Shown here piece after piece: positions 48,463 through 57,386 of a DNA stretch of 64,000 bases. The notes under the pieces are model-generated. The model did no database searches. It had not been told where the DNA came from and worked only from the letters and a program-made list of their open reading frames with translations. This DNA comes from a virus (lineage: Duplodnaviria > Caudoviricetes): the IMG/VR virus record IMGVR_UViG_3300032307_000539, positions 1,629 through 65,628 of that record; one strand, written 5' to 3'. Every line of letters starts with the position of its first letter. The first letter of the stretch is position 1. Made by a program: the position numbers and the translations under genes.

Positions 48463-48723
48463 ATGACTTACATTGAAAAACTAGAAGAAGTTCTAAATGA
48501 AGACTTCTTAAAACTACTTGTGTATAATTGTAAAAAAACCGGTCGTGAACAAAGGCTTTACGAAGAGATTAATTACAATAACGCTGTGCTATTCATCTCA
48601 CGGCTCGTGGGAATATTTGAAACTGACAATAGTGATTATTGGTACGACGCACATTTATCCGTACATTCTCTTAATGTTATGGGTGATTTAGGAATTGAAG
48701 AACCAAAAAACATATTCAAATGA
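48463..48723 (+). CDS. hypothetical protein
   Basis: ORF in the small-gene array. Confidence 0.5.
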   Translation: MTYIEKLEEVLNEDFLKLLVYNCKKTGREQRLYEEINYNNAVLFISRLVGIFETDNSDYWYDAHLSVHSLNVMGDLGIEEPKNIFK

Positions 48724-49001
48724 AAGAAAATTTAAAATCAATCGTGAAAAACTTGGTCAACTTTTTTGACAAGAAAACCAAAGACTTATCTTTGATGAGT
48801 AGAAAACAAGAACTTAGCTACATAAAGTCTTCTGTTGCGGACCTTATCTTGAGGTCCAGACCAAACGGAGGGTGTTTAAGCGTCTCTGAAATCTGCGAAG
48901 TATTAAAGTATATCGAATCAGAAGTTGAGCAAAACATATTAGATAAAAAGCAACAGGCTATTGAACTTTTAGAGGAAATACAAAGTAACACTGATATTTA
49001 A
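48720..49001 (+). CDS. hypothetical protein
   Basis: ATGA-coupled ORF. Confidence 0.5.
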   Translation: MKENLKSIVKNLVNFFDKKTKDLSLMSRKQELSYIKSSVADLILRSRPNGGCLSVSEICEVLKYIESEVEQNILDKKQQAIELLEEIQSNTDI

Positions 49002-53800: not shown

Positions 53801-54472
53801 ATGAAGACATTTAAAGCAAGGGCATCTATGATGGGTGCTCTTTTTACTGAGCCTAGAGCCAAGAAAGATTTGATTTCTGCGACTTGCGAGTCTTACTTGC
53901 AGGATTGGTTTTTAGAGAACAAATGGGGTATTAAGAATGGCTTCTCTTCAAAGTATACAGACAAGGGAATATCTGTAGAGGAGGATGCTATTTCTATGTA
54001 CAATCGTGTTTTCAACGCTAATTGCGTTAAGAACGATGAGTGGTTTGAGGATGAATATTGTACCGGAACACCAGATATTATAAATGAAGATGAAGTAATA
54101 GATGTTAAGAACAGTTTTTCCGTAAAAACGTTTCCGTTCTTTGATAAGGAATTACCCAACAAAGGCTACTTCTACCAACTTCAAACATATATGAGGTTGA
54201 CCGGCAAGTCGAAAGCAAAGATTGTGTATTTTTTAATAGATACGCCAGAAGATATTATAGAAAGAGAAGCTAAGAGTATTTTGTACAAGGAAAACCTACC
54301 AAATGATTTTTATGATATTCTTCTTGAAGAGATAAGAGAGCAACATACGTATGGGCATATTCCTGAGAAAGAGCGAATCAAAGTGTTTGAGGTCTTAAGA
54401 GACGAAGATGTTATAAATGCAATCGAAAATAAAGTTAAATTTTGCAGGGAATTTATTGAAAAATCATTCTAA
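53801..54472 (+). CDS. YqaJ/lambda-type exonuclease
   Basis: RAS, KG..VEEDAI, TGTPDI, IDVK, YQLQTYM. Confidence 0.8.
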   Translation: MKTFKARASMMGALFTEPRAKKDLISATCESYLQDWFLENKWGIKNGFSSKYTDKGISVEEDAISMYNRVFNANCVKNDEWFEDEYCTGTPDIINEDEVIDVKNSFSVKTFPFFDKELPNKGYFYQLQTYMRLTGKSKAKIVYFLIDTPEDIIEREAKSILYKENLPNDFYDILLEEIREQHTYGHIPEKERIKVFEVLRDEDVINAIENKVKFCREFIEKSF

Positions 54473-54541
54473 TTTAATATATTTGCATAGGAGTTAGCTG
54501 AAAATCCTACAAAGAGTAAGCGAACATTTAAAACAATTACA

Positions 54542-54826
54542 ATGGCAAAATTAATTGCACTAAGCATTGATGTAAGTAAACTTGACAAAAGCAAATTTGT
54601 TAAGGGTAAAAAAGGTACTTACGCAAACATTACAATCTCTGTTAATGATGAAGAAGACCAATTTGGAAACAATGTTTCTGCTTGGGAAAGTCAAACAAAA
54701 GAAGAGAGAGATGAAAAGGCAAACAGAAACTTCTTAGGTAACGGTAAAACGGTATGGAGTAGTGATGGTGCACCTAAGTCTGGTGAAAGAGCTAAGGAAG
54801 AAGAGGAAGATGATTTGCCCTTCTAG
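54542..54826 (+). CDS. ssb: single-stranded DNA-binding protein
   Basis: Acidic tail ending DDLPF; follows erf/exo; own promoter element TATATTTG at 54478. Confidence 0.7.
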   Translation: MAKLIALSIDVSKLDKSKFVKGKKGTYANITISVNDEEDQFGNNVSAWESQTKEERDEKANRNFLGNGKTVWSSDGAPKSGERAKEEEEDDLPF

Positions 54827-54831
54827 TATTA

Positions 54832-54860
54832 AAGGGGGTTCGACTCCCCCTTGCTTTTCT
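54832..54860 (+). terminator. hairpin/terminator with a T-loop-like loop
   Basis: AAGGGGG-TTCGACT-CCCCCTT then GCTTTTCT. Confidence 0.5.
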
Positions 54861-54863
54861 GAG

Positions 54864-54997
54864 TAACTATTCGGATATATAATCTTTACTTGTCGGTAAG
54901 GTAGCTAGTGTGTTTGGTCGTATCTCCGTCGTTCCGAATAGTGATAGTTCATAATAGCGATGAAAACACATAAGACTGACAGCACGGAAATCCGTGT
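54864..54997 (+). ncRNA. candidate pseudoknotted ncRNA A
   Basis: 10-bp helix 54866-75/54933-42 crossed by a 7-bp helix 54909-15/54964-70; terminal hairpin CACGG-AAAT-CCGTG. Confidence 0.5.
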
Positions 54998-54999
54998 GC

Positions 55000-55088
55000 C
55001 ATCACTTGGTGTAAGCAGGAATGAATACTGCCGTGGGCAACATCCTTCCACAAGCGAAGGGATGAAGGTTCGAGTCCTTCAGTGGTGC
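55000..55088 (+). tRNA. atypical tRNA-like RNA (loop centre CAA) with a hairpin inserted in the D-loop
   Basis: Acceptor CATCACT/AGTGGTG; T-arm GAAGG-TTCGAGT-CCTTC; no U33. Confidence 0.55.
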
Positions 55089-55108
55089 TAACTTTAAATT
55101 AAATAACA

Positions 55109-55339
55109 ATGAATGAATTAACATTTGGAGAAAAGCTAGTGGGTCTAACATTTAATCCTTCAGGAGACCCTAATGTTCAAAGAGCAAAAGAACTTTGTGC
55201 TGAATTAGCTGATTTATTAAATCAAAATGCAGACCCTAATTCAGAAAGACCTTTATGTAGATTACTTTTTGATAAAGCAATTGGAGATATTTTAGATGCT
55301 CAAATGAATGTAGTTAAAGTATTGACTTTTAAATACTAA
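55109..55339 (+). CDS. Acb2/Tad1-like helical-hairpin protein (candidate anti-defence nucleotide sponge)
   Basis: FNPSGD..VQRAKELCAEL...AI..ILDAQMNVVKVLT resembles the family pattern. Confidence 0.6.
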   Translation: MNELTFGEKLVGLTFNPSGDPNVQRAKELCAELADLLNQNADPNSERPLCRLLFDKAIGDILDAQMNVVKVLTFKY

Positions 55340-55387
55340 AACTGTTTGGATTGGTTGTCACTATACAATGAATAAAGGAAGTGAAAC

Positions 55388-55522
55388 GGAGAGGTGGCGG
55401 AATAGGTGATGATGTGCTATTTATAGACGATTCTTAATATCCTAATAGTAGACGCAACCGAGTGAGCGGTGGTAGGTAATAGTCAATAACTACACTTGCA
55501 AGTTCAAATCTTGCCCTCTCCA
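55388..55522 (+). tRNA. atypical class II (Leu/Ser-like) tRNA-like RNA with ~40-nt D-loop insertion
   Basis: GGAGAGG/CCTCTCC acceptor, TGGCGGAAT...TAGACGC D-arm, GCAAG-TTCAAAT-CTTGC T-arm; aberrant anticodon arm. Confidence 0.6.
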
Positions 55523-55525
55523 CAA

Positions 55526-55767
55526 AAAACAACACATAGAAAGACAAACAGGTAATTGACCGATAAGTAAAGATAGGTTATGTGTAGGTGTTTGAACCTT
55601 GCGACTTGGGCACTAATCCCGCTATTATTTTAAAACATAACGGAATTACCAACACTACCAAGAAGTGTTACGTTTGTTCGAGTATGGTAAAAGTAGAGAG
55701 TTCGATTCCTCATTTAATTCCTATGGTTTAGGTTACTTTACCCCAATCTTGGTGGATGTGTTGTTTT
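55526..55767 (+). ncRNA. candidate ~240-nt multi-helix pseudoknotted ncRNA B
   Basis: Perfect 12-bp closing helix, at least five internal helices, a T-loop hairpin and a perfect 7-bp loop pseudoknot. Confidence 0.65.
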
Positions 55768-55772
55768 ATTTT

Positions 55773-55850
55773 GTCCGCATATCGGCTCTGGCTCATAACC
55801 AGTTGAAACCGTAGTCTGGTTACACGTGGGTTCAAATCCCTCTGCGGACA
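55773..55850 (+). tRNA. D-armless tRNA-like RNA, anticodon CAT
   Basis: GTCCGCA/TGCGGAC acceptor, CTGG-CTCATAA-CCAG anticodon arm, GGG-TTCAAAT-CCC T-arm. Confidence 0.65.
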
Positions 55851-55891
55851 CTAAAAAAACAAATAAAGATTGTTTTATTATAAAATTTAAC

Positions 55892-56009
55892 TATCTTTGC
55901 AAAAGTAATTTTCTGTGGAGGATTAAATTACTACGAAAGACATTTTAAAAAAATAATAAGAAACCTTACAGGGATTAGAGCCTCCACCTCGAAACCTGTA
56001 GGGTTTTCT
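55892..56009 (+). promoter_or_regulatory. promoter (TATCTTTG) and structured kissing-loop leader of the replication operon
   Basis: Hairpin loops GTGGAGG (55915-21) and CCTCCAC (55981-87) are perfectly complementary. Confidence 0.55.
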
Positions 56010-56026
56010 GTTTTAAAACCAATTGT

Positions 56027-56539
56027 ATGAAATTTTCAGAGAAACAATTAGAAGACATTATTTTTAATTCAGACAATTCTTTTTTACAGGAAAAAGGATT
56101 TGATATTTGTGGTAAAAAGTTTAGGCAATTAAACATAAACGGCTATGGTGTTGCAGATTTGATTTGCGTAAGTAGAAATGGTCAATTATTAAACATAGAT
56201 ATTGTAGAGTTGAAAAGAGACGACATATCCATATCTTCTTTCATGCAGGCTTTAAGGTATTTAGATGGAATAAAACATTACTTGAGAAAAAGAAGGTTTG
56301 AATACACTGTTAAATTTACAATAAAACTATGCGGAAGCTCTATATCTGACAACAGAGAGCTAAACTTGATGACGAAATATATTGATGTTTATCCGTTCAT
56401 TGACATAGATTTTTATACATACAGGTTTTCTGTTGATGGAATTTTTTTCGACAAAATAGAAACATTGTATGGATTAGAGTATGACCATTTTAAGGATGTA
56501 AAACCTAAAAAGAAAGAATCTGAATTTACATATTTTTAA
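56027..56539 (+). CDS. PD-(D/E)xK nuclease-fold protein
   Basis: SEKQLED, RQL..GYGVADL, IVELKR, QALRY. Confidence 0.6.
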   Translation: MKFSEKQLEDIIFNSDNSFLQEKGFDICGKKFRQLNINGYGVADLICVSRNGQLLNIDIVELKRDDISISSFMQALRYLDGIKHYLRKRRFEYTVKFTIKLCGSSISDNRELNLMTKYIDVYPFIDIDFYTYRFSVDGIFFDKIETLYGLEYDHFKDVKPKKKESEFTYF

Positions 56540-56540
56540 A

Positions 56541-57386
56541 ATGAGTGGTTGGATTAAAATAAATAGAGACTTGTCAAACCATTGGATTTGGCAAAATAGC
56601 GACTACCTTAAGTGGTGGTTAGATATGCTAATAGAGGTTAATCATACACCTTCAAAGGTGAATATAAAAAACATCATCTATGAATGTAATAGAGGTGAAA
56701 AATTATATTCTTTAGATACTTGGGCTAAAAGATGGAACACAAATAAATCTAAGGTAAGAAGGTTTTTTGAATTATTACAAGATGAAGGAATGATAGTTGT
56801 AAAAAGTGAAACGCAGACTACACGCGTAACAATCTGTAATTATGACAGTTATCAATCTAATGACGATGGAGTTGAAACGCAAATGAAACGCAAACGAAAC
56901 GCAAACGAAACGCATTTGACACCAATACAAGAAAGAAAAGAAAGAAAAGAATATATAACTTCTAATAATACTGGTTTTTCAAAACCAGATGAGATTGATT
57001 GGAATGGTTTGATTTCTTTTTTCAACAAAGTAACCGGTAAGAAGACACGAGTTGTTGGAAGTAAAGCAAAGAGACAATTTAAAAAAAGGCTCGATGAAGG
57101 TTTTAAAAAGGAGGATATAATAAGTGCTATCAAAAATTGCTTTAATGACCCGTATCACAAAAAGAATCCTCACTACTTGACTTTGGAATTTATATCTAGA
57201 GAGGATAAATTAGCAAAATACTCTGATTACAAAAAAGCAGAAGTGAAATTACCTGATGATTGGTTTTTTAGAGAACTTACTCAAGAGCAAAAAGAAATAC
57301 TTCCGCCTGAGAAATTAAAATCTTGGAATTTAAACAAAATGAAAACAGAATTAGAAGGCGGTAAACTAAGACCAATTGAACGATGA
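56541..57386 (+). CDS. phage replication initiator (replisome organiser)
   Basis: MSGWIKINR N-terminus, wHTH (SLDTWAKRW..NKSKVRRFF), VTICNYDSYQ, C-terminal FFNKVTGK domain. Confidence 0.8.
   Translation: MSGWIKINRDLSNHWIWQNSDYLKWWLDMLIEVNHTPSKVNIKNIIYECNRGEKLYSLDTWAKRWNTNKSKVRRFFELLQDEGMIVVKSETQTTRVTICNYDSYQSNDDGVETQMKRKRNANETHLTPIQERKERKEYITSNNTGFSKPDEIDWNGLISFFNKVTGKKTRVVGSKAKRQFKKRLDEGFKKEDIISAIKNCFNDPYHKKNPHYLTLEFISREDKLAKYSDYKKAEVKLPDDWFFRELTQEQKEILPPEKLKSWNLNKMKTELEGGKLRPIER
56874..56917 (+). repeat. iteron array, likely replication origin
   Basis: Four GAAACGCA units at an 11-bp period inside the initiator gene, followed by an A-rich tract. Confidence 0.7.

What the first reader, a model, noticed from the sequence alone, without database searches (positions are those of the whole stretch)
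55526..55767. Large pseudoknotted ncRNA candidate between tRNA-like genes
Seen: closing helix AAAACAACACAT/ATGTGTTGTTTT (12 bp). Nested helices GACAAAC/GTTTGTT, GGTAATT/AATTACC and GTTATGT/ACATAAC. Hairpin AACACT/AGTGTT, whose whole 7-nt loop ACCAAGA (55657-63) is perfectly complementary to TCTTGGT (55747-53). A bulged GGTAAAAGTA/TACTTTACC helix encloses a GTTCGATTC T-loop hairpin. It lies exactly between two tRNA-like genes, so tRNA processing would release it. I do not recognise it as tmRNA, RNase P, 6S or SRP RNA. Inference: an undescribed structured RNA (ribozyme, decoy or scaffold).
Basis: partly seen in the sequence, partly recalled or inferred. Interest (0 to 1): 0.8.

Follow-up and report, generated by a model that had tools for sequence, protein, structure and literature searches.

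The report
New phage RNA inside tRNA operons
This is a real, strongly conserved folded RNA gene that many uncultured phages carry inside their tRNA gene clusters; it matches no catalogued RNA family and its job is still unknown.

Summary
On the single sequence they are not beyond chance: folding z-score is -1.3, and a 12-bp inverted repeat is as common in shuffles. Comparison settles it. A covariance model built from relatives matched 96 places (87 distinct sequences) in 92 of 98 loci from viral and metagenome contigs. 92.7% of cells in the final structure pair, against 37-43% when partners are slid, and 35 of 45 pairs change on both sides.

The fold has a closing helix P1, then P2, P3, hairpin P4 and P5, two variable domains, and invariant junctions (AGAAA and GAGUA). 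The "pseudoknot" is real and covaries, but it is a kissing loop. The T-loop is not conserved.

G·U outnumbers A·C 245 to 27, so the + strand is the RNA. 22 of 87 copies lie 1-15 nt from a tRNA gene, and 297 of 298 tRNA/tmRNA genes in these loci share its strand.

I found no match in Rfam 15, cultured phages or the bacterial genomes searched, and no matching paper. It is most likely a stable trans-acting RNA cut out by tRNA processing. Its function is not shown.

The parts
55526..55537 (+). P1 5' strand (closing helix, pairs with 55756-55767)
   Evidence: All 11 modelled P1 pairs change on both sides somewhere in the family; 94.4% of cells paired. RNAalifold also predicts P1 de novo on the MAFFT alignment.
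55538..55542 (+). J1/2, AGAAA, nearly invariant
   Evidence: Each of the five letters is kept in 85-86 of 87 distinct sequences.
55543..55549 (+). P2 5' strand (pairs with 55672-55678)
   Evidence: 98.5% of cells paired; many G·U wobbles (for example col 20-247: GU 69, AU 15, GC 2). Predicted de novo.
55551..55557 (+). P3 5' strand (pairs with 55644-55650); closes variable domain 1
   Evidence: All 7 pairs change on both sides; 72.4% of cells paired. This register was not in the model's structure. The window has one extra base pair relative to the consensus.
55558..55643 (+). Variable domain 1 (2-106 nt across the family)
   Evidence: Length range. The window's version is shared with L020, L029 and L053. 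An inner hairpin changes AGGT/ACCT to AAGC/GCTT.
55651..55669 (+). P4 hairpin (6 bp, AACACT/AGTGTT) with 7-nt loop 55657-55663
   Evidence: 97.1% of cells paired; 5 of 6 pairs change on both sides.
55658..55663 (+). Kissing-loop strand A (CCAAGA), pairs with 55747-55752
   Evidence: col 224-426: UA 32, CG 7, unpaired 0. col 230-421: AU 75, GC 2, other 1. These pairs were not in the model. The MAFFT alignment gives CG 5, UA 4.
55672..55678 (+). P2 3' strand
55679..55685 (+). J2/5, C-GAGTAT; the AGUA core is nearly invariant
   Evidence: A 85, G 84, U 85, A 86 of 87. It lies opposite J1/2. Reading the two as an S-turn (AGUA/GAA) rests on a recalled consensus and was not tested.
55686..55690 (+). 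P5 5' strand (GGTAA, pairs with 55738-55742); closes variable domain 2
   Evidence: All 5 pairs change on both sides; 92.6% of cells paired.
55691..55737 (+). Variable domain 2 (0-107 nt across the family); holds the window's T-loop-like GTTCGATTC at 55700-55708
   Evidence: a T-loop-like motif is in 5 of 87 distinct members (3 in domain 2, 2 in domain 1).
55738..55742 (+). P5 3' strand (TTACC)
55743..55755 (+). P6: 3-bp hairpin (55743-55745 with 55753-55755). Its 7-nt loop 55746-55752 carries kissing strand B (TCTTGG, 55747-55752).
   Evidence: col 418-427: AU 56, UA 11, CG 8, UG 1, other 3. Predicted de novo by RNAalifold on the MAFFT alignment.
55756..55767 (+). P1 3' strand
55388..55523 (+). 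Left flank: tRNA-like gene 2. Acceptor and T arms are good; the D loop has a 44-nt insert; the anticodon arm is aberrant. It ends 2-3 nt before P1.
   Evidence: Rfam tRNA 31.9 bits. ARAGORN finds it only with the intron option. The L007 version lacks the insert.
55773..55850 (+). Right flank: tRNA-like gene 3 (anticodon loop CTCATAA). It starts 5 nt after P1.
   Evidence: Rfam tRNA 31.4 bits. Relatives in L007, a crAss-like phage and Streptomyces phages covary. It shares its acceptor stem and anticodon loop with the tRNA-Met at the same spot in Elemovirus.

Best explanation
Window 55526-55767 (+) is a gene for a stable, trans-acting structured RNA. It belongs to a family that phages carry as one more gene in their tRNA operons.

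Proposed life cycle (inferred):
- It is transcribed with the neighbouring tRNA or tRNA-like genes.
- It is cut out by the host's tRNA-processing enzymes. A cut after the discriminator base of the upstream tRNA, which carries no encoded CCA, makes its 5' end. RNase P cleavage at the downstream tRNA makes its 3' end.
- Helix P1 then closes the two ends.

Fold (shown by covariation): P2 is probably extended by the invariant AGAAA / GAGUA internal loop. It runs beside a second stack made of P4, a 6-bp loop-loop kiss and the 3-bp hairpin P6. P2, P4 and P6 keep fixed lengths across the family, while P1, P3 and P5 carry variable lengths or domains.

Function (inferred, not shown): the invariant junction letters sit on this rigid core and probably form a recognition surface. 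My best guess is that the RNA binds a host or phage macromolecule of the translation or tRNA system, as a decoy or modulator.

My odds:
- real functional RNA of the + strand: 0.95
- released by tRNA processing: 0.7
- acts by binding a macromolecule as decoy or modulator: about 0.3
For: Family size: model R1 matched 96 places (87 distinct) in 92 of the 98 sources given. These were the window, 32 of 32 viral loci, 59 of 62 metagenome loci and 0 of 3 bacterial-genome loci.

Structure:
- 92.7% of 3621 cells pair, against 36.7-43.0% with partners slid by 1-3 columns.
- 35 of 45 pairs change on both sides; 0 of 500 shuffles reach any of the five measures.
- P3, the kiss and P6 were not in the model's structure, so the alignment was not fitted to them.
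- On a MAFFT-only alignment of 20 sequences, 87.7% of cells pair against 37-44% slid. RNAalifold predicts P1, P2, P4 and P6 de novo on it.

Strand: G·U 245 against A·C 27 cells.

Gene context:
- 51 of 87 distinct copies lie in loci with a tRNA or tmRNA gene.
- The nearest such gene is within 1 kb for 38 copies, within 200 nt for 28 and within 20 nt for 22. It is on the same strand in every case.
- 297 of 298 tRNA/tmRNA genes in these loci are on the element's strand.
- The junction sequences show no encoded CCA on the upstream tRNAs.

Position and copy number:
- In 29 loci with 3 or more same-strand tRNAs the element is in the middle in 18, first in 6 and last in 5.
- There are 1-2 copies per viral record in 5 of 5 records.
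- No protein family is shared by the neighbourhoods; the largest cluster is in 6 of 32 loci.

Invariant junctions: AGAAA is kept in 85-86 of 87 and AGUA in 84-86 of 87.
Against: - No transcript has been seen. No RNA run is listed as holding the region.
- The single sequence does not fold better than shuffles (z = -1.3).
- 36 of 87 distinct copies lie in loci without any ARAGORN tRNA. L002 is one, where the element sits between an exonuclease gene and a DUF805b motif. Many of these loci are short; the median is 5.8 kb.
- In the window the flanks are aberrant tRNA-like genes that ARAGORN does not call, so their processing is assumed.
- Nothing points to a particular binding partner.
- For P1, P2, P4 and P5 the alignment A3 was fitted to the model's structure, which inflates the paired percentage for those helices.
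Confidence: 0.55

Rival explanations
1. It is a building block of an RNA-only assembly. The complementary P4 and P6 loops pair between molecules rather than within one, giving dimers, rings or cages. Phi29 pRNA does this with its two loops (recalled), and GOLLD and ROOL form such cages.
For: Covariation cannot tell a kiss within one molecule from one between molecules. GOLLD and ROOL are also phage RNAs often near tRNA islands, and they form homo-oligomeric cages (passages read). Two paralogs in one phage (L044, L053, L122) keep distinct kiss sequences, CAAGA/UCUUG against CAAGG/CCUUG, which would keep two assemblies apart.
Against: The helix lengths fit a closed intramolecular arrangement: P2 (7 bp) plus the roughly 6-layer internal loop runs beside P4 (6 bp), the kiss (6 bp) and P6 (3 bp). 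These lengths are constant in the family. This is inference, with no 3-D model. The RNA is much smaller than ROOL or GOLLD.
Confidence: 0.12
2. It is a ribozyme, either self-processing or acting on tRNA precursors or other RNAs.
For: It has a rigid multi-helix core, nearly invariant unpaired letters at the junctions and variable peripheral domains, as known ribozymes do. This comparison is a general recollection.
Against: No match to any Rfam ribozyme or RNase P model at E<=10. The element's ends are explained by the abutting tRNAs without self-cleavage. No activity can be tested with these tools.
Confidence: 0.1
3. It acts in cis on its own operon. It could be a stability, processing or anti-termination element for the untranslated tRNA transcript, and not a free RNA.
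For: It is always co-oriented with the tRNAs and often only 1-4 nt from one. In several members P1's 3' strand runs into a U tract.
Against: It sits in the middle of arrays more often than at the start: 18 against 6 of 29. It also occurs away from any called tRNA, as in L002. A fold this elaborate and this conserved in sequence is more than a processing spacer needs (inference).
Confidence: 0.1
4. It is a DNA-level element: a replication origin, a protein-binding inverted repeat, an attachment site or a MITE-like mobile element with terminal inverted repeats.
For: In the window it lies in the recombination and replication module, between the Erf and exonuclease genes and a DnaD-like loader and primase/helicase. 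It has 12-bp terminal inverted repeats. Its position differs between phages.
Against: G·U outnumbers A·C 245 to 27, and this asymmetry has no meaning in duplex DNA. Pairs covary over distances of 90-230 nt, including a loop-loop interaction. Only 1-2 copies occur per genome. The strand matches that of 297 of 298 tRNA/tmRNA genes.
Confidence: 0.02

Closest known systems
GOLLD and ROOL RNAs (Rfam families; Kretsch et al., bioRxiv 10.1101/2024.12.08.627333, passages read)
   Same: They are structured noncoding RNAs of phages and prophages, often near tRNA islands. They have no dedicated protein partner and no known function.
   Different: Neither Rfam model matches. This RNA is 150-280 nt, against roughly 580 to over 800 nt. 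Its core is different: a P1-P6 junction locked by one loop-loop kiss. It was found only on viral and metagenome contigs, not in cultured phages or the bacterial genomes searched.
Phage T4 stable RNAs species 1 and 2 (rnaC, rnaD)
   Same: They are small stable RNAs encoded directly behind a tRNA in the phage's tRNA cluster, on the same strand, annotated only as small, stable RNAs (annotation read).
   Different: Model R1 does not match them, even with filters off. rnaC ends in a tRNA-like T arm plus acceptor strand (sequence read), so it resembles the window's flanking tRNA-like genes more than the element itself.
Phi29 pRNA (recalled; no call fetched it)
   Same: It is a phage-encoded structured RNA of similar size whose two loops are complementary and covary.
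   Different: Rfam reported no pRNA match on the element. pRNA is not part of tRNA operons, and its loops pair between molecules on the packaging motor. That behaviour is unknown here.
UG27 reverse-transcriptase ncRNA arrays of phages of Bacteroidota (bioRxiv 10.64898/2026.09.22.753630, passages read)
   Same: They are phage-encoded structured RNA units of about 150 nt with a pseudoknot.
   Different: Those come in arrays next to a reverse transcriptase and template cDNA. Here there are 1-2 copies and the window's genome has no RT.

Membership tests
Any Rfam 15 family | Score at or above the family's gathering threshold on the element | tested here: not met
   (gathering thresholds, whole window) gives only the tRNA at 55773-55850. 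(E<=10, 54000-56600) gives one overlap with the element: mir-1175 at 15.2 bits against a gathering score of 51, E = 8.7.
tRNA | Cloverleaf with acceptor, D, anticodon and T arms | tested here: not met
   ARAGORN finds nothing on the element. The T-loop-like hairpin is in a variable domain, and a like motif occurs in 5 of 87 members.
tmRNA | tRNA-like ends plus a tag-peptide reading frame | tested here: not met
   ARAGORN's tmRNA mode finds none in 54001-56600, and there is no Rfam tmRNA match. Separate tmRNA genes exist in 7 carrier loci elsewhere.
RNase P RNA | Match to the bacterial, archaeal or type T RNase P models (conserved regions CR-I to CR-V, P4 pseudoknot) | tested here: not met
   No RNase P model reported at E<=10. 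By my recollection of the RNase P topology the order of strands also differs; no tool tested this.
GOLLD / ROOL | Match to the Rfam models | tested here: not met
GOLLD / ROOL | Phage-borne, near tRNA islands | tested here: met
   38 of 87 copies are within 1 kb of a same-strand tRNA or tmRNA gene.
Y RNA / YrlA | Rfam Y RNA model match; a Ro60 (TROVE) gene, and often an RtcB gene, in the same genome | tested here: not met
   No Rfam match. TROVE is in 0 of 5 carrier records and RtcB in 0 of 5. A host-encoded Ro60 cannot be excluded.
Retron / RT-associated ncRNA (incl. UG27) | Adjacent reverse transcriptase gene | tested here: not met
   No RVT_1 match in the window's 65.6-kb genome. No RT appeared among the neighbour clusters.
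T4 rnaC / rnaD | Sequence and structure similarity to the T4 genes | tested here: not met
   R1 with filters off on the T4 tRNA region gives no hit on 70908-71171.
MITE-like mobile element | Many near-identical copies per genome with terminal inverted repeats | tested here: not met
   1-2 copies per record in 5 of 5 records. Copies differ by compensating changes.

The most novel reading that the evidence does not exclude
This is a previously unnamed class of phage RNA with an activity of its own. It could be a new ribozyme or an RNA-only assembly built through the P4-P6 kiss. Phages would place it in tRNA operons so that host tRNA enzymes mature it, and it would act on the host's tRNA or translation system during infection, for instance against tRNA-targeting defences.
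Probability: 0.2. Interest if true: 0.85.

Novelty: new member of a known kind. Interest (0 to 1): 0.64.

Why it matters
Phage tRNA clusters are now read as counter-defence and translation-tuning modules. The few non-tRNA RNAs found in or near them (T4 species 1 and 2, GOLLD, ROOL) have no known function.

This family adds a compact case of 150-280 nt that is well defined by covariation. It has a clear core, 87 distinct natural variants and two natural insertion sites. That makes it small enough for probing, crystallography or cryo-EM, pull-downs and genetics.

It also shows that ordinary annotation leaves a conserved gene unmarked in many uncultured phage genomes, including ones of 36 to 309 kb.

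Tried and rejected
- Single-sequence thermodynamics did not separate the element from shuffles on either strand (z = -1.30 and -1.73).
- Expression: no RNA holder is listed among the 20 public runs that hold part of the region. I did not lay reads, because all holders are DNA contigs.
- An exact 26-mer from variable domain 2 found nothing in viral contigs.
- The 18-mer scan of the 3' block gave 14 stretches, of which 7 were false. Six were the same coding region of a small protein and one was GC-rich.
- The 5' block scan gave 43 stretches, of which 6 were false: L023, L035, L039, L051, L052 and L058.
- The bacterial-genome pattern scan gave 3 stretches, none confirmed by the model.
- 0 of 151 genomes of one bacterial class matched. 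That search used stricter filters and scored 16 candidates per genome.
- Three of 62 metagenome loci found by the pattern did not reach E<=0.001 with the model: L083, L085 and L119.
- A weak model hit at window 48691-48857 (17.4 bits) lies in sequence that reads as coding, and I judged it chance.
- blastn of the window region and of the best-scoring member against 50,697 GenBank phage records found no homolog of the element.
- The nearest cultured relative is Elemovirus, with 59% identity in the primase/helicase. It has no copy.
- Neighbouring proteins gave no partner: PD-(D/E)XK nuclease, SPFH and GIY-YIG families appear in subsets only.
- I considered RNase P, Y RNA, retron-type RNA and T4 rnaC/rnaD and rejected them (see Membership tests).
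- My first P3 register, copied from the window, fitted only 35% of cells. Shifting it by one fixed it.
- My first seventh pseudoknot pair (col 222-427) had 27 unpaired cells. P6 replaced it.
- Literature searches found no description of this RNA.

Full report
**What is in the window.** The 242-nt stretch 55526-55767 holds no ORF of 50 aa or more on either strand. It is flanked by two Rfam tRNA matches, at 55388-55522 (31.9 bits) and 55773-55850 (31.4 bits; gathering score 29). ARAGORN with default settings calls no tRNA in the whole window.

On its own the sequence is not remarkable. The MFE is -55.4 kcal/mol against a shuffle mean of -49.9 (z = -1.30; 19 of 200 shuffles fold as well). The window holds 2 perfect 12-mer inverted repeats within 300 nt, against a mean of 2.7 in 20 shuffles. 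The window is nearly all of a 65.6-kb IMG/VR virus record that CheckV rates complete.

**Relatives.**
- A locus fetched through the primase/helicase (L002; the proteins are 42% identical) holds a copy. Blocks of about 20-45 nt are almost identical there, while P1 and P3 differ by compensating changes.
- Exact-block scans of viral contigs gave more copies. After removing duplicates and false hits, 29 distinct complete elements remained.
- I aligned 20 of these 29 with MAFFT (A2). They were the window plus 19 of the shorter ones.
- From A2 I built model R1.
- A degenerate block scan added 62 metagenome loci and 3 bacterial-genome loci.
- R1 then matched 96 places (87 distinct sequences) in 92 of the 98 sources given. 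These were the window, 32 of 32 viral loci, 59 of 62 metagenome loci and 0 of 3 genome loci.

Members are 150-284 nt when complete. Carrier contigs range from a few kb to 309 kb.

**Structure.** The consensus, 5' to 3', reads:
- P1 (variable outer part, then ACACAU)
- AGAAA
- P2 (GACAAAC)
- A(A)
- P3 (GUAAU), enclosing variable domain 1, then AUUAC
- P4 (AACACU, loop A[U/C]CAAGA, AGUGUU)
- AU
- P2' (GUUUGUU)
- GAGUAU
- P5 (GAUAA), enclosing variable domain 2, then UUAUC
- P6 (CCx, loop AUCUUGr, yGG)
- P1' (AUGUGU, then the variable outer part)

Counts on the 87 distinct rows of A3:
- 92.7% of 3621 cells form standard pairs, against 36.7-43.0% when the 3' partners are slid by 1-3 columns.
- 35 of 45 pairs change on both sides, and 0 of 500 shuffles reach the observed values.

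| Helix | Cells paired |
|---|---|
| P1 | 94.4% |
| P2 | 98.5% |
| P3 | 72.4% |
| P4 | 97.1% |
| kiss | 99.8% |
| P5 | 92.6% |
| P6 | 97.9% |

A3 was fitted to the model for P1, P2, P4 and P5, which favours those helices. The corrected P3 register, the kiss and P6 were not in the model. The MAFFT-only alignment gives the same picture (87.7% paired against 37-44% slid). RNAalifold predicts P1, P2, P4 and P6 on it without guidance.

**The pseudoknot is a kissing loop.**
- The loop letter before CAAGA is U when the partner reads UCUUGA, and C when it reads UCUUGG (UA 32, CG 7, none unpaired).
- Two distinct divergent paralog sequences change CAAGA/UCUUG to CAAGG/CCUUG.
- The 3' partner is itself the loop of a 3-bp hairpin. 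Its third pair covaries (AU 56, UA 11, CG 8, UG 1, other 3).
- P2, P4 and P6 keep 7, 6 and 3 bp throughout, while P1, P3 and P5 vary.
- From this I infer two parallel stacks joined at both ends: P2 plus the internal loop, beside P4, the kiss and P6. No 3-D model supports this.
- AGAAA and AGUA face each other across the end of P2 and are kept in 84-86 of 87 sequences. They fit the S-turn (sarcin-ricin / loop E) consensus as I recall it. No tool tested this.

**RNA, and which strand.** In the paired columns G·U occurs 245 times and A·C 27 times. On the opposite strand these numbers would be swapped, and in duplex DNA the asymmetry would have no meaning. There are 1-2 copies per viral record in 5 of 5 records.

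**Gene context.**
- 51 of 87 distinct copies lie in loci that hold at least one ARAGORN tRNA or tmRNA gene. The median locus is only 5.8 kb.
- The nearest such gene is within 1 kb for 38 copies, within 200 nt for 28 and within 20 nt for 22. It is on the same strand in every case.
- 297 of 298 tRNA/tmRNA genes in these loci share the element's strand. Seven loci also carry a tmRNA gene.
- Within 300 nt the usual neighbours are tRNA-Leu upstream (15) and tRNA-Cys (7) or tRNA-Thr (7) downstream.
- The upstream tRNAs end at the discriminator base with no CCA, 1-4 nt before P1.
- In 29 loci with at least 3 same-strand tRNAs the element is in the middle in 18, first in 6 and last in 5.
- No neighbouring protein family is general. 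The largest cluster is in 6 of 32 loci.
- L002 shows that tRNA flanks are not obligatory.

**The window's own setting.** The order of features is:
1. An Erf-like annealing protein and an exonuclease.
2. A small protein with an acidic tail, preceded by a DUF805b motif.
3. An RNA island from about 54830 to 55850: a conserved structured stretch, tRNA-like 1, a 76-aa ORF, tRNA-like 2, the element and tRNA-like 3.
4. A terminator-like hairpin.
5. A NucS-like protein, a DnaD-like loader and a primase/helicase.

The close relative L020 lacks the ORF and tRNA-like 2. The nearest cultured phages are Flavobacterium Elemovirus phages, 59% identical in the primase/helicase. They have a canonical tRNA-Met at the matching spot and no copy of the element.

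**Comparison with what is known.**
- Rfam 15 reports nothing on the element beyond a chance-level microRNA hit.
- ARAGORN finds no tRNA or tmRNA on it.
- The T4 stable RNAs rnaC and rnaD share the setting, directly behind a tRNA in the cluster, but do not match R1.
- GOLLD and ROOL share the habitat, phages and prophages often near tRNA islands with function unknown (passages read). They share neither sequence, size nor fold.
- The window genome has no reverse transcriptase. Five carrier records have no Ro60 or RtcB gene.
- No homolog was found in 50,697 GenBank phage records by blastn. None of the 3 bacterial pattern hits was confirmed. None of 151 genomes of one bacterial class matched.

**Literature.** Six searches found no description, and no paper in the library holds the conserved motifs. 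PMC10690425 reports 8,495 unnamed candidate structured RNAs from IMG/VR. I read passages only. I did not see its supplementary tables, and they could list part of this family. So I call it undescribed with about 0.6 confidence.

**How it most likely works.** It is shown that this is a conserved + strand RNA fold, a single-copy gene co-oriented with tRNA genes and often abutting them. From that I infer co-transcription with the tRNAs and release by RNase P and 3'-end processing, with P1 closing the ends.

The function is a guess. A rigid core that displays invariant junction letters suggests that it binds a macromolecule of the tRNA or translation system, as a decoy or modulator. Rivals are an RNA-only assembly through the kiss in trans, a ribozyme, a cis-acting operon element and a DNA element. 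The last is nearly excluded.

**Limits.**
- No expression data exist for this region.
- There was no R-scape test, no 3-D model and no host assignment beyond similarity to Flavobacterium phages.
- Family counts come from pattern-seeded collections. They are a lower bound and are biased towards the commonest sequence type.

Noticed in passing
window 55773-55850 (also L007:3650-3745, L126:385-480, L127:388-483): The right-hand tRNA-like gene belongs to a small, odd family. Members also occur in a crAss-like phage and, unannotated, in Streptomyces phages. It has a 7-bp acceptor stem, a T arm and a canonical anticodon loop (CAU, GAU or UAU). Only 3-4 nt stand where the D arm should be. These covary (CGG/CCG against CCC/GGG) with a strand behind the anticodon arm, and a D-loop-like TAGTCTGGT hairpin sits in the variable-arm position. 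It shares its acceptor stem and CTCATAA loop with the canonical tRNA-Met at the same spot in Elemovirus. It may be a tRNA with the D arm moved behind the anticodon arm.
   Followed up: partly
window 55388-55523: The left-hand tRNA-like gene has good acceptor and T arms and a type-II-like start. It carries a 44-nt insert in the D loop that the L007 version lacks, and no convincing anticodon loop. It resembles T4 rnaC in being a tRNA top half with an aberrant body.
   Followed up: no
window 54869-55090: A further conserved noncoding stretch, 79% identical over 225 nt to L020. It has a 9-bp helix CTATTCGGA/TCCGAATAG and ends in tRNA-like gene 1 (55000-55088), whose acceptor and T arms are good and which ARAGORN finds only at a low threshold.
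   Followed up: no
window 54488-54522; L002:4838-4873: A DUF805b RNA motif scores just under its gathering threshold (34.7 and 35.3 bits against 35.6). In both phages it lies directly upstream of the same small gene for a protein with an acidic tail. That suggests a cis-regulatory link to this gene family in phages.
   Followed up: no
window 55879-55995: An intergenic stretch 78.6% identical to unannotated DNA of Flavobacterium Elemovirus phages. It ends in a terminator-like hairpin (about 55963-56013) just before the 170-aa ORF. It could be a leader or attenuator of the replication genes.
   Followed up: no
window 55109-55339: A 76-aa ORF sits between tRNA-like genes 1 and 2. It matches no protein family above threshold and is absent from the close relative L020. 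It looks like an insertion into the RNA island.
   Followed up: no
L025, L026, L030, L034, L056, L067, L109: Phage-encoded tmRNA genes, two of them of the permuted kind, lie in carrier loci. They are mostly on the element's strand, and some are within about 0.4-0.6 kb downstream of it.
   Followed up: no
L009:4191-4267, L024:5399-5475, L041:6136-6212, L049:5155-5231: ARAGORN calls a tRNA with a four-base anticodon (gaaa or gtaa) at the same position in several of these phage tRNA arrays.
   Followed up: no
variable domains of 5 of 87 family members (window, L110, L087, L096, L117): T-loop-like GTTCRANYC motifs recur in the variable domains. By my rough estimate of about 0.5 expected by chance, this is more often than expected. 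They could be structural modules or pieces picked up from neighbouring tRNA genes.
   Followed up: no
L056:4577-4771, L044:8801-9012, L053:6512-6723, L122:3137-3348, L021:6932-7109: Divergent second copies (53-86 bits) lie about 1-1.4 kb upstream of the main copy in the same phage, with their own P1, P2, P4 and kiss sequences. A still more distant variant (L021, 31.9 bits) keeps P4, the kiss, P5 and a closing helix but lacks the AGAAA/GAGUA junctions.
   Followed up: partly
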